64,000 bases of DNA. It comes from a virus. Location: positions 6,937 to 70,936 of IMG/VR virus record IMGVR_UViG_3300003320_000410, one strand, 5' to 3'. Shown piece after piece: positions 4,817 through 47,092 of the stretch (positions are counted from its first letter, which is position 1; each line of letters opens with the position of its first letter). A program made the position numbers and the translations under genes. The notes beneath the pieces are model-generated. The model searched no databases and had not been told where the DNA came from. It worked only from the letters and a program-made list of their open reading frames with translations.

Positions 4817-5281
4817 TTAAATATCAACATATTTAGTGCCGGGGATAACCCTCCCTTGCTGGTGTAATTGTAATAAATCTCTCCAATTATACCCAAATCT
4901 ATTCTCAAAATGCGGGGTATCAAGAATGCTTTTGAAATCCCCTCCCCATGCCATCCCGTGTTTTTTCATTATTTCAACTACTTTCATCCAATTAGGCCCC
5001 ACTACCCAATCTGGTTTGCCATTGGTGATCATTTCGAAATCGAATGCAAGGCCGTAATTATGATAACTCTGCCCAGCTTTGGAGTTAGTCACTCGTGGCC
5101 CTGGCTCTGTTCTACCTTTTGCATACAGTTTGTCGCTCTCTTCAAAAGTCCTATACCCTTGTGTTACTATAATTTTCACATTATCAGGCATGGCAGCTTG
5201 GGCTTCTTCCCATGCTTGTATAGCTGAATCCCTGAATTTTGGATGCAAGGTGGTTAGCTGTGTTAGTGATTGTTGATCCAT
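4817..5281 (-). CDS. Endolysin, M15-family L-Ala-D-Glu peptidase
   Basis: GYRT..E...LY..GRT, SYHNYGLAFD and DTPHFE motifs. Confidence 0.9.
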   Translation of the reverse strand: MDQQSLTQLTTLHPKFRDSAIQAWEEAQAAMPDNVKIIVTQGYRTFEESDKLYAKGRTEPGPRVTNSKAGQSYHNYGLAFDFEMITNGKPDWVVGPNWMKVVEIMKKHGMAWGGDFKSILDTPHFENRFGYNWRDLLQLHQQGRVIPGTKYVDI

Positions 5282-6974: not shown

Positions 6975-7649
6975 TCAAAATCTTATAAGTGAATAAGTAA
7001 TACCAATGCCAGGAATGATTTTTATCTGTCCTCCTATTATACCCGCACCCACAAAAGGTCCAATACTAAATCGTTTCGGCTTTGTGTTTATCTTCTTATA
7101 GTCTGCATACAATTGGCTGTACTTTAACTGCGTTTGGAAAAATCCATTATTGCAATCTATTAACTGCTGATTGAGACGGTTGGCTATTTCTGTTTTGGTT
7201 GCAATAATTTCGTCATTTACTTTCCGTAGTGAGTCATTCGAAAAGATATAATACCCCACTACAGCCTTGGCATTGATTACAGCATCCCGTAGGCTGTCGC
7301 AACGATTGAGAGTGCGTAAAGTATCTTTCTGAGCTTCAGCATCATTTAAATCGGCTATCAATTCGCCTATGTCGTTGGATTGTTTGGCAAGGTTTTTCTC
7401 ATATGACACAATAATGGCCGTTAGACTATCCTTATCGTTTTTAAAGGAATCAGCCTTTTTGCTTATGGAGTCTATTACGTGCTTGCTTTGCTGGTCATGC
7501 TGCTGCATTACGAAGGCAATGCTATCGATACTCTTTTTATCAGACGAATGATCTGGCCCGGGATTTTTATTGCACCCATTTTCCCACAAAATGACACAAA
7601 TAACCACCACAATGGCAAATCCTATCCCATATGGTAATGGGCTTTTCAT
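6975..7649 (-). CDS. Spanin-like protein: N-terminal anchor, long coiled coil, C-terminal beta-hairpin-like segment
   Basis: TM helix, heptad-rich middle, C-terminal RFSIGPFVGAG...IGITYSLIRF; about six D-S/T-x sequons. Confidence 0.55.
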   Translation of the reverse strand: MKSPLPYGIGFAIVVVICVILWENGCNKNPGPDHSSDKKSIDSIAFVMQQHDQQSKHVIDSISKKADSFKNDKDSLTAIIVSYEKNLAKQSNDIGELIADLNDAEAQKDTLRTLNRCDSLRDAVINAKAVVGYYIFSNDSLRKVNDEIIATKTEIANRLNQQLIDCNNGFFQTQLKYSQLYADYKKINTKPKRFSIGPFVGAGIIGGQIKIIPGIGITYSLIRF

Positions 7650-7961: not shown

Positions 7962-8765
7962 TTACGGAAGGGTTTGCTGTGTATTATCCGAATACGTTAT
8001 AAGTATGGATTTTATCGTCTTGGCAATCGGCGGCGGAACAGCTACCGGTGGGGTTACGACGGGAGCGGGTGTCGTAGCTTGTATTACATCGTCATAAATA
8101 TTCAATCCTTTCGGTCCTTTGTAATTATTATCATAGAATTGATTCCACCCGCTATGACCAGCATTGTATGAGATAAAGTCTTCATTGTATCCAGCGCCTT
8201 TCAATAGGACTGTAAAGAATCTTTGCATAGATTGAAAGAATGAGTCTTGCGTACCACAAAATCCTATACTCCGCATTTTGGCCAGTCGGAGATCATTGCC
8301 GCCTAATGAGTCGTTGGGAGAAGTGCCTGCCGATCCGCTCATGGCCATACTCATTACGATTATCCCGGCTATGGGCACATAATGAGCATCATCTTCGCTT
8401 TGGATATATCGCATTACATGGTCGGCTCCATAGGAAAGGCCGGTTAAATAGATTTTGGATTTATCAACGGGGAGATTGCTAATTACGGCCTGAATAGCTG
8501 CTCTTAAAAAGGGAATAGCTGCCGGATTGTTGTATGTTCCGTAGGTATATGGAGTTTGAGCAAAAGCTATTATAAAGTTAGGCGTCCACCCATTTTTAAC
8601 GAAAGCCATTGGCCCATTCACATAGGCTCTTGATGGATCATTACCAGATTCCCCGCTGCCTGGGAACATGATAAATACCGGCAAAGTCCCTGTTGCATTA
8701 TCTGGGACATAATACACCAGATTAAAATTACCAATTGGTGAAGAAAATACTTTTGTCGTTATCAT
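7962..8765 (-). CDS. Alpha/beta hydrolase (esterase/peptidase-like) with Pro-rich C-terminal linker
   Basis: FPGSGE oxyanion region, nucleophile elbow TGLSYGA, candidate Asp (GTQD) and His (AGHSGW). Confidence 0.8.
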   Translation of the reverse strand: MITTKVFSSPIGNFNLVYYVPDNATGTLPVFIMFPGSGESGNDPSRAYVNGPMAFVKNGWTPNFIIAFAQTPYTYGTYNNPAAIPFLRAAIQAVISNLPVDKSKIYLTGLSYGADHVMRYIQSEDDAHYVPIAGIIVMSMAMSGSAGTSPNDSLGGNDLRLAKMRSIGFCGTQDSFFQSMQRFFTVLLKGAGYNEDFISYNAGHSGWNQFYDNNYKGPKGLNIYDDVIQATTPAPVVTPPVAVPPPIAKTIKSILITYSDNTQQTLP

Positions 8766-10375
8766 AACTGTTTCGATTTAAATTTCTTTTTATGAATCCA
8801 CTGCCCAACGCCACTAGGCAACGATACAATTACTTGCGCTTGTACAGTATCTTGTCCGCTGTTATTATCGGATATTAAATCCTGGAATACATATGTGCCG
8901 TTGATCATGTTGGATACACTAACCGTTTGCGAACTAGTATTGGTGAGCGTGGCGGTATTAGGTCCGCTCTTTTGCGTCCAAGAATGGGAGATAATAGAAC
9001 AACAAACGGTATCTACCCCGTTCGCTGCTGGCTGAGAAACAGCAAACACCTTTAACATATTACCGGTGGCTGTAATTGTGGTACTGGACGTACTGATATT
9101 CTGATTGGCTGCATCAACAGTAGGTGGAGTCCCATTATAGGTTTGCGTACGCGCCGTTAATACCGTCACTTGAGTTGGTGAAAGAATATCTAAAGCATCA
9201 TAATGAAACTGATCCATATTAGACCCATCCGGAGTCCAGATATTAGCAGCAAATCCATTGCCCATTACATTTGCTTTATTCCTTCCCCATGAAAATACGC
9301 TATCTAATTGATCTGTGGCATACGTATAAAGTCCGAACCAAGATGTTTTATAAACATGCTTCCAATTTGTTTTTGAACCAATTTGAACTGGGATACCGGT
9401 TGGATGTTCTCCATTAGTAAAAGACCATCCATAATTTGGATAGCCCGGATAATCATATCTCCCAACGAATTCTTGTCCATTTCCCACCTCTCCGAAAGAG
9501 TTCCAACCACATCCATACAGCTTACCGGTTGAGTCTATGTAATGGATGGTATTCCAATCAACCGCCAATTCTTTTATAGGTATGGTTAATCCCCAAAGAC
9601 TTTGAATGGAGGTAGGAGTAGTGAAAGCAGTAGAGCCGCCGTATAGACTTACAGAAGTTCCTGCAACGAAAGGGTAGCCCATTGTTTGAGAACCTGTAGC
9701 AGCAGGCATAAGATACCCCCAAAAATCAACAGCAGCGGAAAATATATCAATTGCGGGGCGAACTGTATTATATATAGTAGGCGTCTGACCTTGTATTCCC
9801 GGCACCCATTTATATACATGCAACCCATCACCTGTTAGTCCCAATATAGTATTACCACCCATCGCCACTTTTTTAAAATGGACTCCGCCCGGTGAAAGCT
9901 GCGTATAATTCATGGTTTGCCCGGTAAATGTTGTTAGATTGCCGCCGGGATAGAAAAGGGAGTAAGCATCTTTCCCGCCATAATAAATAGCAGAGTCAGA
10001 CCCTCGGATATAGGTTTGAGCAGCAGAATAGAAGGTTGCGTAAAAAAGACCTGTTATAGCATTGCCTAAACTATCGGTTGTTAATTCATAAATTCCGTCC
10101 GTTGGGTCTGTAAATATTTTTGTGTACCAGTAATTCCCCGCTTGATCCAATAAAATAGCATAGTTAAATCCACCGGTGGTAAAAGACCAAGATGTTACCC
10201 CTGCTGGCATCGACCATTTCTTTATGAAAGTTCCTCCGTTATTACTATACCCGTACATATTCCCATCTGACATGATGTAGTATACACGGTATTCGCATAC
10301 CAATACACTCTTAACCGTCAATTGAGCTTTAACAGAAAAGGACAGAAACAATAATATAGATAGAATATACTTCAT
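8762..10375 (-). CDS. Signal-peptide protein with RCC1/BLIP-II-like repeats and C-terminal PKD-like domain
   Basis: Start MKYILSILLFLSFSVKA-Q at 10375 (TAATG overlap); YGCGWNSFGEVGNG and FSWGRN repeats; SWTQKSGP...GTYVFQ PKD pattern. Confidence 0.75.
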   Translation of the reverse strand: MKYILSILLFLSFSVKAQLTVKSVLVCEYRVYYIMSDGNMYGYSNNGGTFIKKWSMPAGVTSWSFTTGGFNYAILLDQAGNYWYTKIFTDPTDGIYELTTDSLGNAITGLFYATFYSAAQTYIRGSDSAIYYGGKDAYSLFYPGGNLTTFTGQTMNYTQLSPGGVHFKKVAMGGNTILGLTGDGLHVYKWVPGIQGQTPTIYNTVRPAIDIFSAAVDFWGYLMPAATGSQTMGYPFVAGTSVSLYGGSTAFTTPTSIQSLWGLTIPIKELAVDWNTIHYIDSTGKLYGCGWNSFGEVGNGQEFVGRYDYPGYPNYGWSFTNGEHPTGIPVQIGSKTNWKHVYKTSWFGLYTYATDQLDSVFSWGRNKANVMGNGFAANIWTPDGSNMDQFHYDALDILSPTQVTVLTARTQTYNGTPPTVDAANQNISTSSTTITATGNMLKVFAVSQPAANGVDTVCCSIISHSWTQKSGPNTATLTNTSSQTVSVSNMINGTYVFQDLISDNNSGQDTVQAQVIVSLPSGVGQWIHKKKFKSKQL

Positions 10376-13300
10376 TAATTTTCTTTGTACCAAAACGATG
10401 GGCCAGCGACTATGATAACAGAGCTTCCTGCTGCCACAGTTAAAGAAGTAACAGAAGAAGTGTCGTATATATTATCTGAACCACTCCGAGAAATGGTCAA
10501 ATTACCACTACCTGCATTTTTTATAAAATATTTTCGTCCCTGATTAGCATTAAGAGACGGTAAAGTATATGTGGCTGTTGATCCGTTGAAAACGTAGTCG
10601 GTGGCCGTTGCTAAGGTTATGCTTGTGGAGCCTTCTAATACAAGTCCAATTCCAGGGCTTGCTGATTTCAAATTCCATCTTGTGCCATCAGAGGTGATAT
10701 TATAAGCTCCCCCTGTGGCTAAGGAAGTAATAGAATCATATGGTGAAATATAAAATGCAGATGAGGGCGTCCATTTATTTGTAGACGCTGTGGCATTCTG
10801 TATATATATTCCCAAATCAACACCACTTACATTAGTCGCAGATGGGGATGGTATGGTAACGGTTCTGGTAGCTGTAATATTACCACCCAAATAAAAATCT
10901 CTCGAATCAGAGGTAGTATAATTGGCATCTGTTGTGGTAGCCCCATTACCATATCCTACCGTTCCAAACATCTTTAAAAATCCGTTTTGTCCAACTATAG
11001 GCCATAGCGTTATATTATTAGCCCTCCCCGTAAGTGATCCTATTGGACTTCCAGAAGTTCCCAACAACAAATTAAAACTACCTCCCGACAATGTTCTATT
11101 GGCGGTCAATGTTCCATCTGAATTAAATATATTACTCCCTCCTGTGCCCCCTAAATCAATCCACCCGGACGGGGTTTTTAGCTGTAAAGAATCTACTGTA
11201 GAGTTGTAGATAAGCATCCCGTTTTTCGGCCCGGATACATTCACGGTTACGGTGCTTCCTGAGCCTGTTCCACCCGTTAGCGTTCCGGTCACCGGAGTTC
11301 CTGGGACATAGTTGACACCGCCTTCCACTACATCCGCGCCGATACTACTGCCGCCCGCTAAATAACAGTTTACTACCGCACCAGTACCAATGCCGGGCGT
11401 AGACAGTGTCAGCGTAGGGGCCGCACTCCATGAACCGCCAGTGATGGTAATGGAGCTTACACATCCCATGCTGTCCCGTTGAGCAGTTGTCATCCGAGGC
11501 GGCAAAAAACCTCTGGTTGTGGAGCGCATTTCCACCAGCGCATTCCAGTTGTTCGAGCTATCTCCGCCTATTAATGTTCTTCCGCCTGCTGTGTTGAAAT
11601 AATTGTTGCCGTACTTATTTCTAAGGCCCAATAATTCCGCTCCTCCCTGGCTCGTGATAGTGGGATTGTAATCTATACCACCTAATCTATTACCTCGCTG
11701 GTTTACGCTCGTATTATTAAAAGTGGGCGTCAGGTCCAGGGTTGTGACAGTATCCAATGTCCCGGTCAGGTTATTTACATCGAATTTTATCCGTGTCCCA
11801 GGTGACCTTCCGTTCGATCCGATCTGATTTATACCGGTCGTATAATATTGACCTAAAAAGACCCCGGGAGTATTCGCCGTAGAATAAGTCGCATCCAACC
11901 GAAGCGTATTGCTCACCACGCCAATGCCATATCCTAGAGCGGAAGCAGCTGAGGTGTTACCTGCCTGAAGACTGCCGAAAAAGCTGCCTATACTTGTTGC
12001 GGTTGTTTTTATTGGCGATGTACCGGCAGCAGAATTAACAACCATATTGCCATTTAATGTATCATATCCGCCAATTACCATACCCCCAGACGCGCCGGCA
12101 ACCATTTTGAGTAAATTAGTTGTATCCGCATATCTAAATTGCCCTACTATACGACCCGCATTGAAATCTGGTGCAGTAACTAGCAATGTAGCTATATCCT
12201 GCTGTGCTTTAGTAGACCCGTTATAATTGCTTCTTTTGGTATAATAAATGTTATTATTGGGATTGTTATCCAAATACGACATGATGGAGGAGAATCCAGT
12301 AAACGAAGACCCTGTTACATTGGTTACACTATTAATTTTTATCCATACACTATCAAAAGGCAATGGCGCGATGACATTAAGGGTATCCGTACTTTTAGAG
12401 ATAGTATACCCAGACACACCTCCTATCGTAATGCTTGCTGGACGACTATATCCAGTAAATCCAGCCGGGTCTAATTCGTTGATGAATATAAGTTTTCTTA
12501 AAACCGGCAAGTTGGCCTGCCTAAAGGCAAAATAGGCCAAGCTATCATACCCTGTTTTAGTAGGATGGATATCGTCTGCGATTAAAGCATTATGATGTAT
12601 ATTGTCGAATCCTGCGTCTGTCCGATAGGTGCTATCCCCCCACCACCCTTCATAATCTACTACCGATGCCCCATATTGATCCAAAATACCTAGCCTTAGC
12701 TTGCCATTTACGTATTTAACTTGTTTTAACATTGCTTGATTTGAAAGCGCATCTCCAGGCAGGTTAAATACAACGCATTTAACACCTCTCTGTTGACACT
12801 GGCTTGCCATCCACTCCAAATTCAAAAGAGTTTGGTCGGGAGTAATATTAGCAGGTACGTCGTTTATCCCGGCTATAATCATTACGCATACTGGGCGGCG
12901 GCTTAGCGTTTGTGATCCCCTAGCATCATTCGGGTTACTTACTTCACCAAACGCATCTCGTAAAAATCTTTTTCTTATATCATTAGTAGTTTGTCCCCCA
13001 ATCCCTCTATTTCTCCATGTATAATTAGTGATTTGACTAAGGCGGTAACTTAAAGTTCCGGGCGAATCAGGGTAATCATATTTATAGGTATTTTGAGGGA
13101 CGCCAGACAAAAGCCAATGTTCTGGCCCATGCAAAGCAGGATGCCCTTCCGCCTGGGAATCACCTATTACCACCCCGAATGGAAGCGTTATGTACACGCT
13201 ATCGCCGGTTAATGTACTAGTAAGCCAACCCCCATATTCCGTAGAACCAACAGTTCCCGCACGCGTAGTACTGAATCTATAAACTACGGAATCTATCGAA

Positions 13301-15615
13301 GTGTAGCTATAATTTGTAACCGACGAACCAGCATTCACGCCGTTTGCAAATACCAAGATTTTAGTCTCACTCAGTGGTCGTGGTAATATACCATTAGATG
13401 GCTGATCTTGAATTAAGGTTGTGTCTTGTGCTTTATTGAAGCCATTGCCCATAAAAATATGGGTAGCGGACAAATTAGAGGTCAATTTATTGTTAAATGT
13501 TGACCAATCGGTGCTAGATAATTTACCGGAATGCGTGGGGTCGGCTGTAGGTAAATTAAACGTATGTACCGTACCAGTTGAAGAAATGCCAAAATCCGTC
13601 CCGGTAGTCCCAGTAGCAAATGTTTGCGTTGCTCCGGTAAGCCCATTTAAGGAAGTAATTCCACTTGCCCCCCCGGCTGCCGATATAGTAATAGAACTGT
13701 CTGGATTATGCGTTATAGTTATATTCGTTCCAGCCACAAGGTTATTTAAATATAATGTATCACTCGAAATATTTCCTATTTGAACGCCTGTTCCGGAGAC
13801 TCTATTTTTTACAAATAACGTATCTGGTGCTAAAGAAGCAGGATTGCCGGACCCGTCATACCCTATAATATTACCCGCTGTTCCATTAGCTATTTTCAAA
13901 TTCAATTGATTGGTAGTGGCCGAATCCAATGCTAATAAAGAGCCTACTGTAAATGTCTTTATATTATTCGTATTAGGGAGTGCCCATCTATATCCTGCAC
14001 CTACGTTCGAGTTGGTAGCGCCGCCAGATGCAGCGTTAAGCACCCCAGCCGTCATAGACAATCCTGTACCTAATGTAATTTCCTGATAGTTTCCGGCTGA
14101 TTGCGCACCCAATAATACACTCCCGGCAGAGGCTTGTTGAAATTTGCCGTAGGTAACTTTATTGTTTCCGATAATTAAATTAGGGGTTAAAGACGTTGCA
14201 CCACTAGCAGTTCCTGTTACATCCCCTCCCGCATTAGGGGTAAAAGTAATCGTTTGGTTTGCCGTTAAATAGGTTGAATTATCGTAACTTATGGTCGTAC
14301 CGGAAGCTTTTACAAAACCTGTTCCATTTAATTGATTTTGCTTTAAGCTGTTTTGGTAAAGTGTAGTAAGACCCGTTATAGAGTTTACGGTATCACCTCC
14401 ATAGTTTGGGATATTTAAATTGGGAGAAGAAAAGGTTGCCGCCCCACTTACCCCCGTAGTTGTAAAAACTATTGCGGCCTGTTTCGCATTGAATGTATTA
14501 TAATCTGAATTACTGATGGTGCCGGATGTCACACTGCTAGATGATGCTAATGGTATATTCAGCGTGTGAGTGCTGCCAGAACTTACAAAGGCAGGCGTTG
14601 TCCCGGATGCGCCATTGGCAAAAGTTTGAGTACTTGTAGTGAGGCCATTTAAAGAAGATATACCCCCTCCGCCACCGCCAACAATAATATACCTAAAATA
14701 TCTAGTACCATTTCTGAATTCATACACGCTGTCATTGCTGATGGTTGTACTGTCCACCTTATTATTCCAAGTGTTGAATAGTGTGGGATTGGCGATGCCG
14801 CTTGCAGAAGCGCTTACAGTTGGTATGTTCAAAACAGCCGTTCCGCCTAGATTAGCTGAAGTCGCTCCCCAATTGGGAGCACTACCGGAAGTCCCTATTG
14901 AAAAATTAATAGACGAGTTAGCCAGATTGCCATTAGGTATCCCAGTGGGCAAATCAGCCGTTACCAACGTTCTGAAAGAAGGCGTACCTGGGCTACCTAT
15001 GGATGGCCCAGCAAAGAAAGTATTAGCACTTTGATTGGCTAAATTCATTGTTCCGGTCCATGCCCCCCCACTATTATTAAATGTAACCGGGCTATTGAAC
15101 ACTCCGCTGGGAACCGTAAAAACTAAAGAGCTTATGCCGCCCCCTGATGTTCCCCTTAATAAAACACTCGTCGTAGTTCCATTTAATTGATGGAAATTGA
15201 AAACAGAATCATTGACTCTATAAATAGTATCTACTAAACTCAATGGAACATTTGTAGAGTCCACATACACTTTTACTAAATTACTGTCAGCTACTCCGTT
15301 TCTATACCACCATAAAGTTGTTATACCTCCGGTATATGTTCCGTTCCCATTCAACGTGCCTCCCTGATGTACAGCCATGAATTCATGACCAAAACGGGAT
15401 GCAGATGTTGGCCTATTTAGTCGCACCTCTGTTGTATCCCTAAAATCCCTATACCTGAAATTGATAGTATCATAATACATTAAACGCCCATTAAAGGGGG
15501 CATTTTGAGAAGGGAATATAGCATCATTTATTGGTATGTGTTTGGTCGGTAAGTATCCTTGAGAATACCCAACAATGGATGCGAGAACAAATAATATAGT
15601 TAGTATTTTCTTCAT
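10375..15615 (-). CDS. Tail fibre/spike-like protein (1746 aa) with signal peptide and internal SGNH hydrolase domain
   Basis: G/S/T-rich fibre repeats; SGNH blocks GDSQ, RGIGG, GIND, DIHP; C-terminal TLP...GRKYFIKN fibre domain; N-terminal MKKILTILFVLASIVGYS-Q. Confidence 0.8.
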   Translation of the reverse strand: MKKILTILFVLASIVGYSQGYLPTKHIPINDAIFPSQNAPFNGRLMYYDTINFRYRDFRDTTEVRLNRPTSASRFGHEFMAVHQGGTLNGNGTYTGGITTLWWYRNGVADSNLVKVYVDSTNVPLSLVDTIYRVNDSVFNFHQLNGTTTSVLLRGTSGGGISSLVFTVPSGVFNSPVTFNNSGGAWTGTMNLANQSANTFFAGPSIGSPGTPSFRTLVTADLPTGIPNGNLANSSINFSIGTSGSAPNWGATSANLGGTAVLNIPTVSASASGIANPTLFNTWNNKVDSTTISNDSVYEFRNGTRYFRYIIVGGGGGGISSLNGLTTSTQTFANGASGTTPAFVSSGSTHTLNIPLASSSSVTSGTISNSDYNTFNAKQAAIVFTTTGVSGAATFSSPNLNIPNYGGDTVNSITGLTTLYQNSLKQNQLNGTGFVKASGTTISYDNSTYLTANQTITFTPNAGGDVTGTASGATSLTPNLIIGNNKVTYGKFQQASAGSVLLGAQSAGNYQEITLGTGLSMTAGVLNAASGGATNSNVGAGYRWALPNTNNIKTFTVGSLLALDSATTNQLNLKIANGTAGNIIGYDGSGNPASLAPDTLFVKNRVSGTGVQIGNISSDTLYLNNLVAGTNITITHNPDSSITISAAGGASGITSLNGLTGATQTFATGTTGTDFGISSTGTVHTFNLPTADPTHSGKLSSTDWSTFNNKLTSNLSATHIFMGNGFNKAQDTTLIQDQPSNGILPRPLSETKILVFANGVNAGSSVTNYSYTSIDSVVYRFSTTRAGTVGSTEYGGWLTSTLTGDSVYITLPFGVVIGDSQAEGHPALHGPEHWLLSGVPQNTYKYDYPDSPGTLSYRLSQITNYTWRNRGIGGQTTNDIRKRFLRDAFGEVSNPNDARGSQTLSRRPVCVMIIAGINDVPANITPDQTLLNLEWMASQCQQRGVKCVVFNLPGDALSNQAMLKQVKYVNGKLRLGILDQYGASVVDYEGWWGDSTYRTDAGFDNIHHNALIADDIHPTKTGYDSLAYFAFRQANLPVLRKLIFINELDPAGFTGYSRPASITIGGVSGYTISKSTDTLNVIAPLPFDSVWIKINSVTNVTGSSFTGFSSIMSYLDNNPNNNIYYTKRSNYNGSTKAQQDIATLLVTAPDFNAGRIVGQFRYADTTNLLKMVAGASGGMVIGGYDTLNGNMVVNSAAGTSPIKTTATSIGSFFGSLQAGNTSAASALGYGIGVVSNTLRLDATYSTANTPGVFLGQYYTTGINQIGSNGRSPGTRIKFDVNNLTGTLDTVTTLDLTPTFNNTSVNQRGNRLGGIDYNPTITSQGGAELLGLRNKYGNNYFNTAGGRTLIGGDSSNNWNALVEMRSTTRGFLPPRMTTAQRDSMGCVSSITITGGSWSAAPTLTLSTPGIGTGAVVNCYLAGGSSIGADVVEGGVNYVPGTPVTGTLTGGTGSGSTVTVNVSGPKNGMLIYNSTVDSLQLKTPSGWIDLGGTGGSNIFNSDGTLTANRTLSGGSFNLLLGTSGSPIGSLTGRANNITLWPIVGQNGFLKMFGTVGYGNGATTTDANYTTSDSRDFYLGGNITATRTVTIPSPSATNVSGVDLGIYIQNATASTNKWTPSSAFYISPYDSITSLATGGAYNITSDGTRWNLKSASPGIGLVLEGSTSITLATATDYVFNGSTATYTLPSLNANQGRKYFIKNAGSGNLTISRSGSDNIYDTSSVTSLTVAAGSSVIIVAGPSFWYKEN

Positions 15616-16490
15616 ACCGTGCTTATTGTAATGAGATTCGACGGGTTTACTGTGAAAGGATTTCCTGAACGACTAAATACATACTTCTTACTGTTGAATG
15701 CATTTATTTCAAATACAAATCCAGGAATAGGGCCGTTATCTACTGGTGGGTTATCGAAATGATTTTTGGTTGGTTCGGTATCTGGATATTGTATAACGAT
15801 GTATTTGGCAGAAATAGCTTCCGGGAATTGAATAGGGAATGGATTGCCCGGTGTTACTGTTAAGCTAAATATATATGGTACATTATCTACCCCACTTTCC
15901 AGATCAGCGCTATAATCCGTATCTCCATAGTATACACGTACTACAGTCGCGCTTGTAACGGTCAATGTCGCGATAGACGACGTGGCTGTTTTCCCATTTG
16001 AGTCTACTACTTTCACATAAAAGGTTTTACCGGAGTCAGATAATTGAGCATTTGAGAGCGTATAAACAGATGAGGTAGCACCCGATATTGGGTTACCTAA
16101 TGAATCATACCATTGATAAGAGAAAGGAGAACTTCCCGTAACCGCAACCGAAAAAGAGGCATTTTGCCCCGCCGTTACTGAAATTGAATTAGGCCCAGTT
16201 ATAACCGGTGCTCCCAATGCAATGTTATCTATGATCACCAATGCTTTTTGAAGATACGGCCAGCACAACGCTAATAGGTAATTAGCCATATCATTCATAA
16301 ACTGAGCAGATGATCCGTATGTATAATACCATTCTATGGCTTTACGTTCCATATAAAGCATCTGTGGCAATCTGGGGTCCGTTGGTTTCTTATTGTAGAA
16401 GTCTGCCGCCCGAACATCCTGACTAGCCAATACTTGACAAATCTTAGCTATCTGTATGGTCTCCGGTATGGTATATGGTACGGCTCCCAT
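15612..16490 (-). CDS. Virion accessory protein with immunoglobulin (I-set-like) domain
   Basis: PVITGP..ISVTAGQNASFSVAVTGSSPFSYQWY...DSG.FYV.V pattern. Confidence 0.75.
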   Translation of the reverse strand: MGAVPYTIPETIQIAKICQVLASQDVRAADFYNKKPTDPRLPQMLYMERKAIEWYYTYGSSAQFMNDMANYLLALCWPYLQKALVIIDNIALGAPVITGPNSISVTAGQNASFSVAVTGSSPFSYQWYDSLGNPISGATSSVYTLSNAQLSDSGKTFYVKVVDSNGKTATSSIATLTVTSATVVRVYYGDTDYSADLESGVDNVPYIFSLTVTPGNPFPIQFPEAISAKYIVIQYPDTEPTKNHFDNPPVDNGPIPGFVFEINAFNSKKYVFSRSGNPFTVNPSNLITISTV

Positions 16491-17011
16491 CAGAAATAAA
16501 CTTGTTGATTGCTGATTAAATTATAGGCTTCATCCAATGAATTTTGTGCTAAATATACATCCTGCATTTCGGTTACCGATTGTACGGCATCATCAATAAA
16601 TAATCTCAATTTAGACTTGTTAGAATAAAAATTATTATCGCTCACCAATAATGGATTAGATGCCTGCATGCGCGTAAGCCCGGCGTAAAAGTTCTCACTG
16701 TTGGAAGTGAAGGCATTTAAGATAGTCTGTGTATACGTGCTGGGGCTGGGTAATGGGCTGGAAGATAACCAATCGCATTCTATCCTTAGAGCGTAATCCC
16801 TGTCCAAAAGATTAATAACAATAGAGGATTGAGAAATGGGCCAATCTATGTATGCATTGGACGCGCCAATGGGAGTAAGAGTAGTCCCATCTGCCTTAAA
16901 AAGGTAAACTTTTCGATCAATCAAGCTAGGATCGGTGCCTGTGCTTGTGTCTGTCAAAGTGAAAGATTGATAATCAACCCCTTGCGATATTGAAAAGTTC
17001 CCATTAAACAT
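16490..17011 (-). CDS. Putative virion structural protein
   Basis: Position between head genes and fibres; beta-rich N-terminal half. Confidence 0.55.
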   Translation of the reverse strand: MFNGNFSISQGVDYQSFTLTDTSTGTDPSLIDRKVYLFKADGTTLTPIGASNAYIDWPISQSSIVINLLDRDYALRIECDWLSSSPLPSPSTYTQTILNAFTSNSENFYAGLTRMQASNPLLVSDNNFYSNKSKLRLFIDDAVQSVTEMQDVYLAQNSLDEAYNLISNQQVYF

Positions 17012-17018
17012 TTTTTAT

Positions 17019-17747
17019 TTATTGTAGATATTTAAAAATATATCCTTTGGTTGATTTTTGCCGTCCATTAACAACGAAAGAAATCAAATTTCTATTGATT
17101 GATAATTGTTCTGATGCTTCGTTTATGCAGACATAATCCCTTATCTTATTATTATTTAAATCATACTGTGTTATTGCTTTCCCCCTGAGTTTTGTATTTT
17201 GTTTTTTATATTGAAGCCGCATTTCCTCTGTCATTTTTCTGCCTCTTAATTTAGACGCTCTTTTTTCTTTTGTATACTGAGATTGTCTAACACCAAGAGA
17301 GTTTTGTTTGCCTTTCATGCTTTGAGATATCTTCAATTTAACTTCAGCAGGAATTGTTTTGCCAATATTTCTTTCTCTTGCTTTTTTCCTAAAATCTTCA
17401 GATTTCTTAACTCCCAAAGTCCCGCGCCCCCCTTTGGTCAAATTCATTCCGTTTTGTTCTGGCCATTGTTTTCTAAATGACATCATAGTTCTAATCCAAA
17501 ATATCTCTTTTCCGTTAGCATAATGTATATCGGATTTGAAGGAATCTATAACTTCAAAGGAATGAGACTTGAACCCATATTTAATGATTGATCTGTGTAA
17601 TAATCTTTGATCTTTACTAAATCCTTTTTCATAAAATCGTATTCTTTTTTTTAAATTAGAGGTTAGACCTATATAAATACGACCTTTTGGATTTGTTATT
17701 TTATAAATATCCCAATGTCTAACGATATTAAAATTGGCCTTCAGCAT
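17019..17747 (-). CDS. GIY-YIG homing endonuclease with NUMOD3/NUMOD1-like repeats
   Basis: IYKITNPKGRIYIG; C-terminal ITQYDLNNNKIRDY; start moved to ATG 17747 because 17783 lies inside a terminator. Confidence 0.85.
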   Translation of the reverse strand: MLKANFNIVRHWDIYKITNPKGRIYIGLTSNLKKRIRFYEKGFSKDQRLLHRSIIKYGFKSHSFEVIDSFKSDIHYANGKEIFWIRTMMSFRKQWPEQNGMNLTKGGRGTLGVKKSEDFRKKARERNIGKTIPAEVKLKISQSMKGKQNSLGVRQSQYTKEKRASKLRGRKMTEEMRLQYKKQNTKLRGKAITQYDLNNNKIRDYVCINEASEQLSINRNLISFVVNGRQKSTKGYIFKYLQ

Positions 17748-17760
17748 ATTTGAAATTTTT

Positions 17761-17798
17761 AAAAAAGGGACGGCAACCTGCAAATGCAGTCAGCCATC
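17761..17798 (-). terminator. Intrinsic terminator after head genes
   Basis: GATGGC...CTGCA-TT-TGCAG...GCCGTC then T-run on minus strand. Confidence 0.7.
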
Positions 17799-18752: not shown

Positions 18753-20108
18753 TTAAACTACGCGATACTTCAGGAAAAGTTTCACGCCAAGGCATTCAAG
18801 ACCTTGGGCGGTGAACCAGTCAGTGTGAAGATACATCTGGCTGTTGGTGGGAACGTCCGCCAAAGCACCTGTCCTCCATTCTTTGATAATCCCATTGGAC
18901 GAACCGGTAGCAGGATTACCGTTGAAAGGGCTAGGTGTATGGCGAATCTGCATACGTGGCTCCCGGCCACCGTCTACCGTCTCCAAGGAATCCTTGGGAA
19001 CAAAGAAGATAGAGCCGTTGATATCTGGATTAAGCGTGGCCGAAAACAATTGCGGATGATCGAAGATGGGAATATGCACGAAGTCGATCTTATAACCGCG
19101 ATAGCTGATCTGGTCAACTTCCAGGTCTACGCTACGTCCGTCGATGACCATACGGACAGAGGTAACACCCGAAGAACCCAAGTTCTTGAAAAATTTATCC
19201 AACACAGCCTTGGAACGAGACCCCATGAATCCCATTTGATCGGTGGGGGATTTGACAGCAATCCAATCATCTACGATGTCGTCCAATTCAGTAAACCCGA
19301 ATGTACCCAGAACGGCGGCTCCATCACTTGTACCGTAGGTCGTTACATACCAGTTTAGACCGCCGGTAGTTTGAATAGGAAGGCCGCTGGTGGGCTCAGC
19401 CAAGAATGGGTTGGCATCATTGAAGCTGGTGGAAGATTGAACACCGGCAATCATCTGGTAGGAAATATCTCCGTTCAGCTTGATAACCTTTTGTATCAAT
19501 TGGTAAGGCAGAATATGATAATCGCCGTTTACCTCTACTTCCACTTTAGCCACTTTCTGAACGTCGGTAATTTCATCTACTTCCCGGAAATTCTGAATGA
19601 GGTTGAAGTATTTGGTAAGTCCGTACCGACGATTAACAGGAGCATCCGATTTTTCCGGAAACGAGTTAGAGCCAAAGGCCACCAAATCATTGACGGTTGC
19701 AAAGAAAGGAGCAGCATTACCACCTACGGAGCGAACGGTTAAGGTAGCTGTGCCGGACCCGAAAGTAACCGCCTGTACACGGGCCTGTTTGCCTACGTTG
19801 TTGATGTTGGACGTTTGGATCAAATCACCTACGCGCGGAAAGGTAGCGGCGGTGTTGATCGTAAACTGGATTTGGGCCAGACCGGTAGATGTCACGGCGG
19901 AAATAGTACCCACTTCATAAACGTCATTGTTTACAAAGTTGTGGTAGTTGAACATCTTAGCAGGCTTGTAGCGGCCTACTATTTTCATGATGTCTGTAAA
20001 AGCACGGTCGCGGGATTGATCGTAAATATTAGGATCGATATCCCTCTGATCCAAAAAGTCGATGGCTGAAATGTACGATTTAATCATCGTACCCTGTGTA
20101 ACTGGCAT
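18753..20108 (-). CDS. Major capsid protein
   Basis: 451 aa after portal and scaffold; capsid-like motifs YFNLIQNFRE and TTGGL. Confidence 0.8.
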   Translation of the reverse strand: MPVTQGTMIKSYISAIDFLDQRDIDPNIYDQSRDRAFTDIMKIVGRYKPAKMFNYHNFVNNDVYEVGTISAVTSTGLAQIQFTINTAATFPRVGDLIQTSNINNVGKQARVQAVTFGSGTATLTVRSVGGNAAPFFATVNDLVAFGSNSFPEKSDAPVNRRYGLTKYFNLIQNFREVDEITDVQKVAKVEVEVNGDYHILPYQLIQKVIKLNGDISYQMIAGVQSSTSFNDANPFLAEPTSGLPIQTTGGLNWYVTTYGTSDGAAVLGTFGFTELDDIVDDWIAVKSPTDQMGFMGSRSKAVLDKFFKNLGSSGVTSVRMVIDGRSVDLEVDQISYRGYKIDFVHIPIFDHPQLFSATLNPDINGSIFFVPKDSLETVDGGREPRMQIRHTPSPFNGNPATGSSNGIIKEWRTGALADVPTNSQMYLHTDWFTAQGLECLGVKLFLKYRVV

Positions 20109-40134: not shown

Positions 40135-40887
40135 TTAGCTTTTAATAGATGCTCTATAGGTTGAACGAATAATATCTATGATATCAGTGACAGTGAGCGT
40201 GTTCAGACGTGCTCTTAACTTTCTTTTCTCGTTATAAAACGTTCTCGCTTCCGGTGAATCTTTTATAGCTGCCCTTGGACTCCTTTGCCAATCCGTATAA
40301 GTAAACAATGTCCTCGATGCTGCTGTTTCAATCTTGCTGGCGTTATCTACTGTTTGCCCATCTGAAATGTACATAACCACCGCCGTAGAACTAGTGAATG
40401 TTCCTGTCAATTGGATTTGCCTTCTTTCTTTAATCACATTATATGCATTCAATCGCCCATTTCCAGGCGCTCCAAAACGTCGGCCTGTTGGCTCACCCCA
40501 GTCCGACACATTCCAATACCAAAAAAACTCTCCATTAAATGTTAAAGAGTTCGGCTCATCCGTAGTAATGACCACGGGACTAGGAATGAATGAACCTGTA
40601 GAGTCATGCGAACGGATAGGTGTTATGCTAGCTCTCTGTGGTACGGGTTGTAGAAATCCTCCACGCGGCAAATATAAACCCACAACATCAACCAAATCGT
40701 CTGGAAAATCAATCGCATTGTAATTGTTGACTGGCAATGTGGCGGAATTTACTATTTGTAAACTGTCAAAATTCAGCTCCTTCAAACAAGTCGAATGGTG
40801 CAACAGGGTCTCCAAATAAAAATGGATCGGCAGACCGCGTTCAAGCAGGTATCGCCTTGTTAATGAATCTAAGGAGTCAAAAATCAT
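40135..40887 (-). CDS. Tail ring/tubular protein
   Basis: About 250 aa, immediately upstream of muzzle gene. Confidence 0.55.
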   Translation of the reverse strand: MIFDSLDSLTRRYLLERGLPIHFYLETLLHHSTCLKELNFDSLQIVNSATLPVNNYNAIDFPDDLVDVVGLYLPRGGFLQPVPQRASITPIRSHDSTGSFIPSPVVITTDEPNSLTFNGEFFWYWNVSDWGEPTGRRFGAPGNGRLNAYNVIKERRQIQLTGTFTSSTAVVMYISDGQTVDNASKIETAASRTLFTYTDWQRSPRAAIKDSPEARTFYNEKRKLRARLNTLTVTDIIDIIRSTYRASIKS

Positions 40888-44169: not shown

Positions 44170-44395
44170 AGAACATGAAATGGAGAGCGGGCTTGTAATT
44201 CCAAAAACAGCCAATTCGCAATTGACCGAGGGTCTTGTGGTAAAGATAGATGAATCAATAAAAGACTTCACGCCAGTAGGTAATATAGTTGTTTTCCCTA
44301 CTGGCTCTGGGGTGGGACAGTTTATTGACAATGCGCCACACTTATGGCTTTCGGTTAATGACGTGTGGGGAACCTTCTCAATGGATAATGAATGA
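44105..44395 (+). CDS. groES: Co-chaperonin GroES homologue
   Basis: LLGGRLLVK...ESGLVIP mobile loop, EGLVV, VGNIVVF; 96 aa. Confidence 0.85.
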   Translation: MSTKMPDKLLGGRLLVKVLKSEEHEMESGLVIPKTANSQLTEGLVVKIDESIKDFTPVGNIVVFPTGSGVGQFIDNAPHLWLSVNDVWGTFSMDNE

Positions 44396-45087
44396 ACAAT
44401 CCATTAAAGATATTATTTAAGTTCCCTACCCGTGGCAGGCCGGAATATTTCATCAAAACGATGGAAAATATTTATAGCAACATAGCTTACGGCGATGATT
44501 ATTTAATTTGGGTAACGGCTGATTCAGACGATGCGTCGATGAATAATGAAAATATTAGATCTAAATATCCATACGATTTTCCAAACTCCATAGTGAGTTT
44601 TGGCAGATCGACATCGAAGGTAGATGCTATTAATAGAGACATGGGTTTAGCTTCTCAACGTTTCGACTGGGATATACTTATAGTTGTATCAGATGACATG
44701 GAATTTACCTTTTATGGATTTGATAAAATCATAAGAGATCAATTCAGTGATGGCGATCTTGACAAATTAATTCATCTACCCGATTCTGATGCGAAAGATG
44801 CATTAGCTACTATGTACATAGCTGGAAGAACATTTTATGACCGCTTTGGCTTTATATACAATCCTTGTTATCATAGCTTATTTTGCGACAATGAAATACA
44901 GGAAATAGCCAAACAGTTAGGATGCTACCGATACGTAGATATTCCCGGCATCATTTTTCATCACAACCCAGCGTATGGCCATAGAGAAAAAGACCAAATG
45001 TTTATAGAACAGCAAGAAATAGGATGGGATAAAGATCATAAAACGTTCTTAGAAAGACAATCCAAAAATTTTTATTTGAATATATGA
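44392..45087 (+). CDS. Glycosyltransferase, GT-A fold (GT2-like)
   Basis: FPTRGR, DSDD, SDD, CDNE motifs. Confidence 0.75.
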   Translation: MNNPLKILFKFPTRGRPEYFIKTMENIYSNIAYGDDYLIWVTADSDDASMNNENIRSKYPYDFPNSIVSFGRSTSKVDAINRDMGLASQRFDWDILIVVSDDMEFTFYGFDKIIRDQFSDGDLDKLIHLPDSDAKDALATMYIAGRTFYDRFGFIYNPCYHSLFCDNEIQEIAKQLGCYRYVDIPGIIFHHNPAYGHREKDQMFIEQQEIGWDKDHKTFLERQSKNFYLNI

Positions 45088-47053: not shown

Positions 47054-47092
47054 CTTTATTAATAATGTTAGCCATCATTTTGTGTATTTTAT

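What the first reader, a model, noticed from the sequence alone, without database searches (positions are those of the whole stretch)
8762..15615. Tail fibres with Sec signal peptides and dense Bacteroidota O-glycosylation sequons: possible periplasm-routed, host-glycosylated virion appendages
Seen: both the 1746-aa fibre (MKKILTILFVLASIVGYS|Q) and the 537-aa RCC1/PKD protein (MKYILSILLFLSFSVKA|Q) start with classic signal peptides with Gln at +1. By hand count about 24 of about 72 Asp in the fibre and about 6 in the neighbour fall in D-(S/T)-(A/L/V/I/M/T); my rough composition-based expectation is near 10 percent, and the major capsid protein has only one. The predicted periplasmic spanin-like protein has about six. 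Established: Bacteroidota cleave many signal peptides before Gln (Q-rule) and O-glycosylate extracytoplasmic proteins at this sequon; tailed phages normally assemble fibres in the cytoplasm. Inference: these receptor-binding proteins are exported, glycosylated by host machinery and joined to virions at or after lysis (host-glycan camouflage, solubility, or avoiding premature receptor binding), or they are fibre-derived envelope proteins. I am not aware of this being described.
Basis: partly seen in the sequence, partly recalled or inferred. Interest (0 to 1): 0.9.

Follow-up and report, generated by a model that had tools for sequence, protein, structure and literature searches.

The report
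Exported, sugar-tagged phage tail fibres
An uncultured phage of soil and root Bacteroidota, with hundreds of relatives, encodes its only tail-fibre-like protein with a conserved export signal and many copies of the host's sugar-attachment tag, so the fibre probably matures outside the cytoplasm, which is not known for tailed phages.

Summary
The 1746-aa fibre has 24 of 72 Asp in D-(S/T)-(A/L/V/I/M/T), against 6.9±2.5 in shuffles. The RCC1/PKD neighbour has 6 (1.9 expected), the spanin-like protein 6 (0.8) and the capsid protein 1.

Both proteins start with textbook type-I signal peptides followed by Gln.

The pattern extends to a large family. The fibre's N-terminal domain occurs in 619 protein clusters. 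Of 130 newly fetched top hits, 122 carry a signal peptide plus Gln.

- Signal-bearing fibres are about 2.4-3 times enriched in the sequon.
- The third-position spectrum (V, L, M, I, T, A favoured; D, E, P, Q, N avoided) matches the published Bacteroidota O-glycosylation motif.
- Homologues without a signal peptide are not enriched, including one that starts exactly at the predicted cleavage site.
- Fibres of cultured Flavobacteriia phages and crAss001 are not enriched either.

The host is Bacteroidota, probably Chitinophagaceae.

Export and host O-glycosylation are well supported, but only computationally. Whether the fibre joins virions is untested (about 45%). The RCC1/PKD protein is a captured host secreted protein that has lost its T9SS tail.

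First-stage notes of this scan reported the same feature on other phage DNA, without follow-up. I found no published description.

The parts
10375..15615 (-). Fibre gene (P0001, 1746 aa): signal peptide, conserved N-domain, repeat shaft, SGNH esterase, variable C-terminal tip. It carries 24 O-glycosylation sequons.
   Evidence: Its ATG overlaps the stop of the upstream gene (ATGA).
15562..15615 (-). Type-I signal peptide, residues 1-18 (MKK, 13-residue hydrophobic core, G-Y-S), with predicted cleavage before Gln19.
   Evidence: Gln19 is invariant in 24 aligned homologues. 67 of 121 first-round homologues and 122 of 130 second-round ones have SP+Gln. AF2 models a helix at 2-16 followed by a disordered linker.
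15250..15561 (-). Conserved N-terminal domain of the mature fibre (residues 19-122), the likely attachment domain.
   Evidence: The profile finds 619 clusters. It is homologous to the very N-terminus of the SP-less fibre P0018 (39% identity, E=9e-17). pLDDT is 80-90 for residues 45-116.
12544..13167 (-). SGNH/GDSL esterase domain (residues about 817-1024). Blocks: GDS 818-820, GIGG about 872, GIND 916-919, DDIH 1014-1017.
   Evidence: PF13472 E=1.6e-13. Motif positions.
10378..11415 (-). C-terminal tip region (residues 1401-1746), which is exchanged between relatives. It is the only segment not enriched in sequons (2 against 1.5).
8762..10375 (-). Exported RCC1-like beta-propeller plus PKD protein (537 aa, signal peptide residues 1-17, Gln18). 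It is a captured N-terminal part of a host T9SS-type secreted protein and lacks the CTD.
   Evidence: Its ATG overlaps the fibre's stop (TAATG).
7962..8765 (-). 267-aa protein with no signal peptide and no sequon enrichment; only sub-threshold esterase-type Pfam hits. Translationally coupled to the gene before it (ATGA).
6975..7649 (-). Spanin-like protein (224 aa): N-terminal TM helix, a helix-rich, coiled-coil-looking periplasmic part carrying 6 sequons, and a hydrophobic C-terminal end. It serves as an internal positive control for an extracytoplasmic phage protein.
   Evidence: Equivalents in relatives have 8/14 and 9/14 Asp in sequons.
15612..17011 (-). Two conserved SP-less genes just upstream of the fibre (173 aa, FN3/PKD-like lead only; 292 aa with an Ig-like domain). 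They are candidate virion partners and are not sequon-enriched.
18753..20108 (-). SU10-type major capsid protein, head of the same late gene string. 1 sequon in 33 Asp.
4817..5281 (-). Endolysin (Peptidase_M15_4/VanY) without a signal peptide. It marks the lysis cassette downstream of the fibre module.

Best explanation
The window is a roughly 72-kb tailed phage (SU10-type capsid, crAss-like tail genes) of a Bacteroidota host, probably Chitinophagaceae, from a root metagenome. Its only fibre-like gene encodes a receptor-binding-type fibre made as a Sec preprotein.

Proposed pathway, all inferred:
1. The 18-residue signal peptide takes the chain across the inner membrane.
2. Signal peptidase I cuts before Gln19, and the host glutaminyl cyclase would convert that Gln to pyroglutamate.
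3. The host's general O-glycosylation system adds glycans at up to 24 D-(S/T)-(A/I/L/V/M/T) sites.
4. The fibre folds and trimerises in the periplasm.

Shown here: the signal peptide and Gln+1 are conserved across hundreds of relatives. Sequon enrichment is specific to the published motif and occurs only in signal-bearing or membrane-anchored phage proteins. Selection has therefore acted on glycosylation of these proteins.

Inferred, at about 45%: the mature glycosylated fibres are the virion's receptor-binding and receptor-deacetylating (SGNH) appendages. They would dock through their conserved N-domain onto fibreless particles once holin lesions and lysis merge cytoplasm and periplasm.

The neighbouring RCC1/PKD protein is a captured host secreted protein. 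It has lost its T9SS C-terminal domain, so it should stay in the periplasm. It is glycosylated in the same way, and its role is unknown.
For: Signal peptide:
- The n/h/c regions are classical, and the -3/-1 positions are small.
- Gln19 is one of 14 invariant columns, while the signal sequence itself drifts.
- 122 of 130 new N-domain family members have SP+Gln.

Sequon:
- In 55 SP+Gln fibres D[ST][ALVIMT] has O/E 3.02 (962 against 319). D[ST][other] is 0.65, E[ST][..] 0.54 and the reversed motif 0.82.
- Third-position O/E values are V 4.6, L 3.9, M 3.7, I 3.5, T 2.4, A 1.6. D, E, P, Q and N are at or below 0.4. Ser is preferred over Thr. All of this matches the motif described in the review PMC12871550.
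- 47 SP-less homologues have O/E 0.60.
- P0018 has the same N-domain, starts at the cleavage point, has no SP, and carries 4 sequons against 9.5 expected.
- Enrichment runs along the whole fibre except the tip.
- The pattern repeats in four related phage loci.

Host:
- All 87 TerL hits among 50,697 GenBank phage records are Flavobacteriia phages, apart from one record labelled only Caudoviricetes.
- The RCC1/PKD protein is 49% identical to a Puia sp. protein.
- Shine-Dalgarno motifs are not used above background.

Virion role:
- The gene is translationally coupled in the late head-to-lysis string, with conserved synteny.
- The N-terminus is conserved and the enzymatic and tip domains are mosaic.
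- PHROGs and Pfam find no other fibre gene.
- P0018 lies behind large structural genes.

Feasibility:
- Bdellovibrio MAT fibres have a signal peptide too, and one was expressed recombinantly with a PelB leader (PMC10769870).
- Engineered sequons in exported proteins are glycosylated in Bacteroidota (PMC12871550).
Against: - There is no experimental datum: no cultured relative carries such a fibre. tblastn of the fibre against 50,697 phage records finds nothing.
- Fibres of Flavobacterium, Cellulophaga and crAss001 phages have no signal peptide.
- SignalP could not be run.
- No route is known by which a periplasmic fibre reaches a tail assembled in the cytoplasm, and no other structural protein has a signal peptide.
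- Complex prediction gave no verdict for the fibre N-domain with the upstream 292-aa protein.
- Part of the pooled enrichment is shared ancestry: 4 conserved sequon columns account for 71 of 116 sequons in the first 330 residues.
- Some exported Bacteroidota relatives (Ferruginibacter and the 'QNV' group) are not enriched.
- The adjacent gene is a captured host secreted protein, so the whole module might be an exported accessory set rather than virion parts.
Confidence: 0.5

Rival explanations
1. The fibre and its neighbour are exported and glycosylated but are not virion parts. They act in or on the envelope of the infected (or lysogenic) cell. One option is a receptor-destroying esterase that deacetylates surface polysaccharide, so that progeny are not trapped on debris or superinfection is blocked. 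Another is a cell-surface fibre like the Bdellovibrio MAT adhesins.
For: The architecture (signal peptide, conserved beta-rich N-domain, variable tips) equals that of the MAT fibres, which sit on a cell surface (PMC10769870). The neighbour gene is a captured host secreted protein. Relatives L009 and L010 carry integrases, so lysogenic expression is conceivable. P. gingivalis prophages carry Q-rule signal-peptide proteins that were proposed to modify the host envelope (PMC10367356). Tailed-phage assembly is cytoplasmic as far as is known.
Against: The gene is translationally coupled inside the late head-to-lysis string at a conserved position. The phage would then have no recognisable fibre at all. 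The same N-domain heads an SP-less fibre in a tail module. There is no T9SS CTD, lipobox or other route to the cell surface. A shaft of about 1700 aa with swapped tips is more than a periplasmic enzyme needs.
Confidence: 0.3
2. The hydrophobic N-terminus is not a cleaved export signal; it could be, for example, a membrane tether on the cytoplasmic side. The sequons would then be served by the phage's own glycosyltransferase-like genes (44392-49900) in the cytoplasm, as in mycobacteriophage virion glycosylation.
For: The phage has a string of GT-like genes, with weak Pfam matches to GT2 (E=0.0011) and GT25 (E=0.0017) (scan note e1-5348883). Phage-encoded cytoplasmic glycosylation of virion proteins is known in mycobacteriophages (own knowledge; only titles citing 'virion glycosylation' were seen).
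Against: Cytoplasmic structural proteins are not enriched at all: capsid 1, portal 3, the 1812-aa protein 2 of 135 Asp. Enrichment is confined to proteins with a signal peptide or TM anchor, including the spanin-like proteins of crAss001, phi38:1 and elemoF. The motif is exactly that of the host's periplasmic system. The invariant Gln directly after an A/G/S at -1 is the Bacteroidota signal-peptidase signature (PMC5837995). The n-region has only 2-3 residues, so nothing would face the cytoplasm.
Confidence: 0.07
3. The enrichment is a structural or compositional by-product, for example Asp-Ser turns before beta-strands in this fibre lineage. The proteins are not glycosylated.
For: In the AF2 model several sequons sit at turn-to-strand or helix N-cap positions. 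Four sequon columns are simply conserved by descent.
Against: SP-less homologues with the same shaft repeats and the same N-domain are depleted (O/E 0.60; P0018 4 against 9.5). Unrelated folds are enriched when exported: spanin-like proteins, the beta-propeller/PKD protein, and small SP proteins. The control motifs (D[ST][other], E[ST].., reversed) are at or below expectation.
Confidence: 0.05

Closest known systems
Bdellovibrio bacteriovorus mosaic adhesive trimer (MAT) fibres (Caulton et al. 2024, PMC10769870)
   Same: Both are phage-tail-fibre-like proteins with a signal peptide, an invariant beta-rich domain of about 100-130 aa directly after it, a long shaft and swappable C-terminal tips. 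Some Bdellovibrio proteins share shaft repeats with this fibre.
   Different: MAT fibres are chromosomal and sit on the predator's own surface. Their N-domain shows no evident sequence likeness (by eye; no profile comparison run). They have no Gln+1 rule and no sequon enrichment (O/E 0.74). The fibre here is encoded in a phage's late structural operon.
Classical tail fibres and tailspikes of tailed phages that carry SGNH esterase or other depolymerase domains (own knowledge; SP-less examples seen here in Cellulophaga phi38:1, Flavobacterium elemoF and crAss001)
   Same: Conserved N-terminal part, mosaic enzymatic and tip domains, and a place in the structural gene block. The SGNH domain has all four motif blocks.
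   Different: Those fibres start without a signal peptide, are assembled in the cytoplasm and are not sequon-enriched.
Substrates of the general O-glycosylation system of Bacteroidota (review PMC12871550) and the Bacteroidetes Q-rule (PMC5837995, PMC10653852)
   Same: Signal peptide with Gln at +1. The D-(S>T)-(V/L/I/M/T/A) sites show the same residue preferences and exclusions.
   Different: Those are cellular proteins, and the review does not mention phages (0 occurrences). The density here, about 30% of all Asp in a sequon, exceeds that of some exported cellular relatives.
Q-rule signal-peptide proteins of Porphyromonas gingivalis prophages (Matrishin et al. 2023, PMC10367356)
   Same: Phage-encoded proteins predicted to use the host Sec/SPI pathway with Gln at +1.
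   Different: Those are five proteins of unknown function, thought to modify the host envelope. They were not described as fibres, and glycosylation was not considered.
Virion glycosylation in mycobacteriophages (own knowledge; papers citing it listed)
   Same: Glycans on phage structural proteins.
   Different: There, phage-encoded transferases act in the cytoplasm on capsid and tail-tube proteins. Here the host's periplasmic system would act on an exported fibre.
pIII of filamentous phages (own knowledge)
   Same: A receptor-binding virion protein made with a Sec signal peptide and added to the particle outside the cytoplasm.
   Different: Inoviruses assemble by extrusion through the envelope. 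This is a tailed, lytic-type phage with capsid, portal and terminase.

Membership tests
Sec/SPI signal peptide obeying the Bacteroidetes Q-rule | Positively charged n-region, uncharged hydrophobic h-region of 10-15 residues, and small residues at -3/-1 | tested here: met
   MKK + ILTILFVLASIV + G-Y-S for the fibre; MK + YILSILLFLSF + S-V-K-A for the neighbour. A heuristic scan finds this in 67/121 and 122/130 homologues.
Sec/SPI signal peptide obeying the Bacteroidetes Q-rule | Gln at +1 of the mature protein | tested here: met
   Gln19 is invariant in the 24-sequence alignment. The rule is described in PMC5837995.
Sec/SPI signal peptide obeying the Bacteroidetes Q-rule | Positive call by a trained predictor (SignalP/DeepTMHMM) and actual cleavage with pyroGlu | not testable with these tools
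   No such predictor or proteomic data were available.
Substrate of the Bacteroidota general O-glycosylation system | Sequon D-(S/T)-(A/I/L/V/M/T) present, with the published residue preferences | tested here: met
   24 sites in the fibre. Family O/E is 3.02 with the matching third-position spectrum and Ser>Thr.
Substrate of the Bacteroidota general O-glycosylation system | Non-cytoplasmic location | tested here: inconclusive
   Inferred from the signal peptide only. Enrichment is confined to SP/TM proteins in 5 phage genomes.
Substrate of the Bacteroidota general O-glycosylation system | Host belongs to Bacteroidota | tested here: met
   TerL hits only phages of Flavobacteriia among named records. 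The RCC1/PKD protein is 49% identical to a Puia sp. protein. Shine-Dalgarno motifs are not used.
Substrate of the Bacteroidota general O-glycosylation system | Glycan actually attached | not testable with these tools
   Needs glycoproteomics.
Tailed-phage tail fibre / receptor-binding protein | Gene in the structural (late) block, with a conserved N-terminal part and mosaic distal domains | tested here: met
   Synteny MCP-294-173-292-fibre holds in L003, L005, L009 and L010. Relatives carry SGNH, pectate-lyase, BNR and S74 domains.
Tailed-phage tail fibre / receptor-binding protein | Fibre-type repeats or trimeric beta structure | tested here: inconclusive
   DUF5907 repeat E=5.9e-8. Precomputed PTL_trimer and Peptidase_S74 hits in relatives. 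No PDB sequence match. The monomer AF2 model is poor.
Tailed-phage tail fibre / receptor-binding protein | Physical presence on the virion | not testable with these tools
   There is no cultured relative. Complex prediction gave no verdict.
SGNH/GDSL hydrolase | Blocks I (GDS), II (G), III (GxND) and V (DxxH) | tested here: met
   GDS 818-820, GIGG about 872, GIND 916-919, DDIH 1014-1017. PF13472 E=1.6e-13.
T9SS cargo | C-terminal Por_Secre_tail domain (PF18962) | tested here: not met
   No Pfam hit in fibre residues 1380-1746 even at E<=1. The neighbour ends where its Puia homologue still has about 400 residues including the CTD.
Lipoprotein (SPII) | Lipobox with Cys at +1 | tested here: not met
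   There is no Cys near the cleavage site. The first Cys of the fibre is at residue 910.
Bdellovibrio MAT fibres | The MAT-specific N-terminal domain after the signal peptide | not tested
   Only the architecture was compared. The Bdellovibrio hits begin differently (APTGLTYQGR..).

The most novel reading that the evidence does not exclude
These phages finish their virions outside the cytoplasm. The receptor-binding fibres are exported by Sec, capped with pyroglutamate and coated with the host's own O-glycan in the periplasm. They dock onto fibreless particles only when lysis merges the compartments. This would be the first extracytoplasmic assembly step, and the first host-glycosylated receptor-binding protein, in a tailed phage. 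It would be used by a whole uncultured lineage (at least 619 protein clusters) of soil and root Bacteroidota phages.
Probability: 0.42. Interest if true: 0.92.

Novelty: new variant of a known kind. Interest (0 to 1): 0.8.

Why it matters
Tailed-phage morphogenesis is taught as wholly cytoplasmic. A large lineage whose only fibre carries a conserved, cleavable export signal and is under selection for the host's periplasmic glycosylation tag challenges that view, whichever way the virion question falls.

If the fibres are on virions:
- Phage particles of Bacteroidota would carry host-type glycans on their receptor-binding parts. That bears on stability, protease resistance, immune recognition and host range.
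- It would add a new assembly step at lysis.

If they are not on virions:
- These phages would deploy fibre-like exported effectors of a kind known only from Bdellovibrio.
- They would infect with no recognisable fibre.

In practice:
- A signal peptide should not be used to rule out a virion protein, or to call a gene "bacterial", in Bacteroidota viromes.
- Sequon density can mark extracytoplasmic phage proteins and point to a Bacteroidota host.
- The question is directly testable with one isolate or by heterologous expression.

Tried and rejected
- Megablast and tblastn of the fibre, and tblastn of the capsid protein, against GenBank phages gave no match.
- IMG/VR pattern scan with the fibre found one weak locus only.
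- The genome-contig scan with the N-terminal alignment found no relative, so no prophage or host name came from it.
- The Bacteroidota promoter motif TAnnTTTG, alone or with a -33 TTTG, is not enriched in the window (64 against 71.6; 0 against 3.8). It is uninformative.
- Whole-protein Pfam and PHROGs searches of the fibre gave no family. Segments had to be searched separately.
- No PDB sequence match.
- AF2 of residues 1-330 had mean pLDDT 63. Only residues 45-116 are confident, so no fold search was run.
- The listing of cluster members gave no organism names.
- Complex prediction of the upstream 292-aa protein with the fibre N-domain gave no verdict (score 0.00). This is neither support nor evidence against.
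- Atlas look-ups of the 292-aa and 173-aa proteins gave only Ig/FN3/PKD-like leads below the reliable score.
- Pfam support for the glycosyltransferase-like operon is sub-threshold.
- Lipoprotein and T9SS routes were considered and rejected: no lipobox Cys and no CTD.
- A mis-called start codon was rejected. The ATG overlaps the upstream stop, and the signal peptide is conserved in hundreds of relatives.

Full report
WHAT IS THERE

The window is 64 kb of a 72,437-bp IMG/VR virus record that is 95% complete. The same DNA is present in a root metagenome.

The late genes run on the minus strand in this order:
- Three ring-sized genes and a 1140-aa protein with a crAss muzzle C-domain.
- Genes of 203, 608, 1812 (with a His-phosphatase domain) and 363 aa.
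- An endonuclease, TerL and the portal.
- A 148-aa gene and a 394-aa gene in the scaffold position (no family hit).
- The SU10-type capsid protein.
- A 294-aa gene, a GIY-YIG homing endonuclease, a 173-aa gene and a 292-aa gene with an Ig-like domain.
- The 1746-aa fibre (15615..10375) and the 537-aa RCC1/PKD protein (10375..8762).
- A 267-aa protein.
- A lysis cassette with TM proteins, a 224-aa spanin-like protein (7649..6975) and an M15 endolysin (5281..4817).

The fibre's ATG overlaps the upstream stop (ATGA). Its own stop overlaps the next ATG (TAATG), and that gene's stop overlaps the following ATG. These genes are therefore translationally coupled members of the late string.

The fibre begins MKKILTILFVLASIVGYS|Q and the neighbour begins MKYILSILLFLSFSVKA|Q.

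Sequon counts against 2000 shuffles per protein:

| Protein | Sequons / Asp | Expected | p |
|---|---|---|---|
| Fibre | 24 / 72 | 6.9±2.5 | <=0.0005 |
| RCC1/PKD neighbour | 6 / 24 | 1.9 | 0.0065 |
| Spanin-like protein | 6 / 18 | 0.8 | <=0.0005 |
| Capsid protein | 1 / 33 | 1.9 | - |
| Portal | 3 / 54 | 1.8 | - |
| 1812-aa protein | 2 / 135 | 4.8 | - |
| Muzzle-like protein | 2 / 61 | 3.9 | - |

Genome-wide, the 8 proteins with a hydrophobic N-terminus hold 40 sequons against 10.4 expected. The other 89 proteins hold 39 against 43.3.

Within the fibre, four of five segments are enriched. The exception is the C-terminal tip, with 2 against 1.5.

IT IS A FAMILY TRAIT, AND IT TRACKS THE SIGNAL PEPTIDE

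A search with the first 500 residues found 525 homologues, mostly on contigs of 50-80 kb. Of 121 fetched, 67 start with a signal peptide followed by Gln. Gln19 is invariant in an alignment where the signal sequence itself drifts.

A profile of the mature N-domain (residues 19-122) finds 619 clusters at 50% identity among 1.84 billion representatives. Of 130 new top hits:
- 122 have SP+Gln.
- Their pooled sequon O/E is 2.4.
- 98 of the 103 long ones exceed expectation.

Motif controls in 55 SP+Gln fibres:

| Pattern | O/E |
|---|---|
| D[ST][ALVIMT] | 3.02 (962 against 319) |
| D[ST][other] | 0.65 |
| E[ST][ALVIMT] | 0.54 |
| N[ST][ALVIMT] | 0.88 |
| Reversed motif | 0.82 |

The third position favours V 4.6, L 3.9, M 3.7, I 3.5, T 2.4 and A 1.6. 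It excludes D, E, P, Q and N. Ser is preferred to Thr (4.4 against 1.9).

This is the motif of the Bacteroidota general O-glycosylation system as reviewed in PMC12871550:
- Asp is nearly obligatory and Glu is not tolerated.
- L/I/V/T/A/S make up about 90% of third positions; N/E/Q/P/D are below 1%.
- Ser is slightly preferred.
- Only non-cytoplasmic proteins are modified, and engineered motifs become glycosylated.

NATURAL CONTROLS

1. 47 homologues that share shaft repeats but have no signal peptide have O/E 0.60.
2. P0018 is a 2049-aa fibre behind large structural genes on a farmland phage contig. Its N-domain is 39% identical (E=9e-17) to that of an SP-bearing member. It starts exactly at the predicted cleavage point (M-SYNPS against ..S|QTYNPS). 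It has no signal peptide and 4 sequons against 9.5 expected. The other genuine SP-less members (P0308 and three fragments) are also not enriched.
3. Bdellovibrio relatives with non-Gln signal peptides have O/E 0.74.
4. Cultured Bacteroidota phages have SP-less, unenriched fibres: Flavobacterium elemoF, Cellulophaga phi38:1 and crAss001 gp22-26. Their TM-anchored spanin-like proteins are enriched: gp32 3 against 0.7, gp084 3 of 4 Asp, gp27 4 of 8 Asp.
5. In four related phage loci only the SP-fibre, the SP-bearing proteins after it and the spanin-like protein are enriched. Portal, scaffold-position, capsid and the SP-less upstream proteins are not.

A caveat applies to the pooled numbers. They contain shared ancestry: four conserved sequon columns give 71 of 116 sequons in the first 330 residues. 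Even so, the mosaic remainder is still 2.7-fold enriched, and unrelated exported folds show the same bias.

HOST

- All 87 TerL matches among 50,697 GenBank phage records are Flavobacteriia phages (Flavobacterium, Cellulophaga, Tenacibaculum, Maribacter), apart from one record labelled only Caudoviricetes.
- Shine-Dalgarno motifs occur at background frequency, 8 of 97 genes.
- The RCC1/PKD protein aligns from its first residue, signal peptide included, to residues 1-510 of a 910-aa Puia sp. protein (49% identity, E=1e-149). Other hits are from Flavitalea and Sphingobacteriales.
- The bacterial proteins continue for about 400 residues and carry the T9SS C-terminal domain PF18962. The phage copies lack it.
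- This protein family is SP+Gln and about 2.8-fold sequon-enriched in both phage and bacterial members.

The host is therefore Bacteroidota, probably Chitinophagaceae. The neighbour is a captured host secreted protein that should now stop in the periplasm.

WHAT THE FIBRE LOOKS LIKE

- Signal peptide, residues 1-18.
- A linker, then a small confident domain (residues 45-116, pLDDT 80-90).
- A Ser/Thr/Gly-rich repeat shaft with a DUF5907 repeat.
- An SGNH esterase with all four motif blocks: GDS 818-820, GIGG about 872, GIND 916-919, DDIH 1014-1017 (PF13472 E=1.6e-13).
- A tip domain that recurs behind different middles in relatives.

Relatives swap in pectate-lyase, BNR-sialidase-like and S74 chaperone domains. 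This is the architecture of a receptor-binding, receptor-modifying fibre.

There is no T9SS CTD and no lipobox. PHROGs and Pfam find no other fibre-like gene in the genome.

MECHANISM

The pathway below is inferred. The evidence makes it hard to avoid: the signal peptide and Gln+1 are conserved across hundreds of relatives, and the sequon enrichment follows the signal peptide.
- Sec export.
- SPI cleavage before Gln19.
- Cyclisation by the host glutaminyl cyclase. The Q-rule is described in PMC5837995, and Q-rule processing with cyclase activity stabilises extracytoplasmic proteins (PMC10653852).
- O-glycosylation at many of the 24 sites.

Periplasmic folding of such fibres is feasible. Bdellovibrio MAT fibres have a signal peptide, a conserved N-domain of about 130 aa and variable tips, and one was expressed recombinantly with a PelB leader (PMC10769870).

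The step I rate at about 45% is that these are the virion's fibres, docking through the conserved N-domain after holin lesions open the inner membrane.
- For: the operon position, the RBP-like mosaicism, the SP-less homologue in a tail module, the sparing of the tip from sequons, and the lack of any other fibre.
- Against: no precedent and no partner identified. Complex prediction gave no verdict.

The main rival (about 30%) is an exported envelope effector or MAT-like surface fibre. Two minor rivals are cytoplasmic glycosylation by the phage's weakly supported GT-like genes and a purely structural bias. Both are contradicted by the controls above.

PRIOR KNOWLEDGE

Four full-text searches found no description of Sec-exported or host-glycosylated tail fibres.
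- The O-glycosylation review never mentions phages.
- The nearest statement is that P. gingivalis prophages encode five unknown proteins with Q-rule signal peptides (PMC10367356).
- A DGR paper explicitly used the absence of signal peptides as a sign of phage origin (PMC6199706).
- First-stage notes of this scan flagged the same feature on other phage genomes, without follow-up.

VERDICT

Export plus host O-glycosylation is well supported computationally. Incorporation into virions is open. This is a new variant of a known kind (a tail fibre), it has a high-value reading that is still alive, and it is directly testable.

Noticed in passing
window 6975-7649; L003 18345-19016; L005 17183-17854; L008 44184-44783; L007 18051-18596; L012 25093-25695: TM-anchored spanin-like or lysis proteins of Bacteroidota phages are strongly enriched in the O-glycosylation sequon in every genome examined. 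Counts: 6/18, 8/14, 9/14, 3/4 Asp, 3 against 0.7 expected, and 4/8 Asp (crAss001 gp27). This suggests glycosylated spanins are general in this phylum.
   Followed up: partly
window 8762-10375: The RCC1/PKD protein is the first 510 residues, signal peptide included, of a Puia sp. (Chitinophagaceae) protein of about 910 aa (49% identity). It lacks the C-terminal 400 residues that carry the T9SS CTD. It is a host gene captured and truncated so that its product should stay in the periplasm.
   Followed up: yes
L011 10001-16150 (ENA farmland contig): P0018 is a 2049-aa fibre with the same N-domain but no signal peptide. It starts at the predicted cleavage point and is depleted in sequons (4 against 9.5). 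It is a natural signal-peptide-less variant, useful for experiments.
   Followed up: yes
window 44392-49900: A string of glycosyltransferase-like genes interrupted by two NUMOD4-HNH endonucleases. Pfam support is only sub-threshold (GT2 E=0.0011, GT25 E=0.0017). They might remodel the host's lipid-linked O-glycan that ends up on the exported phage proteins. This was not tested.
   Followed up: partly
window 40135-40887: A 250-aa tail-ring-sized protein without a signal peptide has 4 sequons against 1.1 expected (p=0.0135), two of them in its first 9 residues. This may be chance among 97 tests.
   Followed up: no
window 17019-17783: A GIY-YIG/NUMOD homing endonuclease sits between the 294-aa and 173-aa structural genes. 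The related phages L003 and L005 lack it at this place.
   Followed up: partly
L003 15247-15663; L005 14725-15138: Relatives have a 137-142-aa protein with an N-terminal TM anchor directly after the fibre gene. It could be a periplasm-facing fibre assembly factor. The window has no such gene.
   Followed up: no
L009 14887-16263; L010 16104-17210: Phages with other fibre N-domain types after the signal peptide (QTIQFLGSPTTQIY.., QVPIGCPTC..) carry integrases close to the fibre module, so part of this lineage is temperate. Their SP-less gene just upstream of the fibre (409-413 aa) changes together with the fibre's N-domain type.
   Followed up: partly
P0101, P0104, P0039, P0077, P0096 (chromosomal Ferruginibacter and similar proteins): These exported Bacteroidota proteins (SP+Gln, starting QNV..) share shaft repeats with the fibre but are not sequon-enriched (O/E 0.95). 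The enrichment in the phage fibres is therefore not an automatic result of export.
   Followed up: partly
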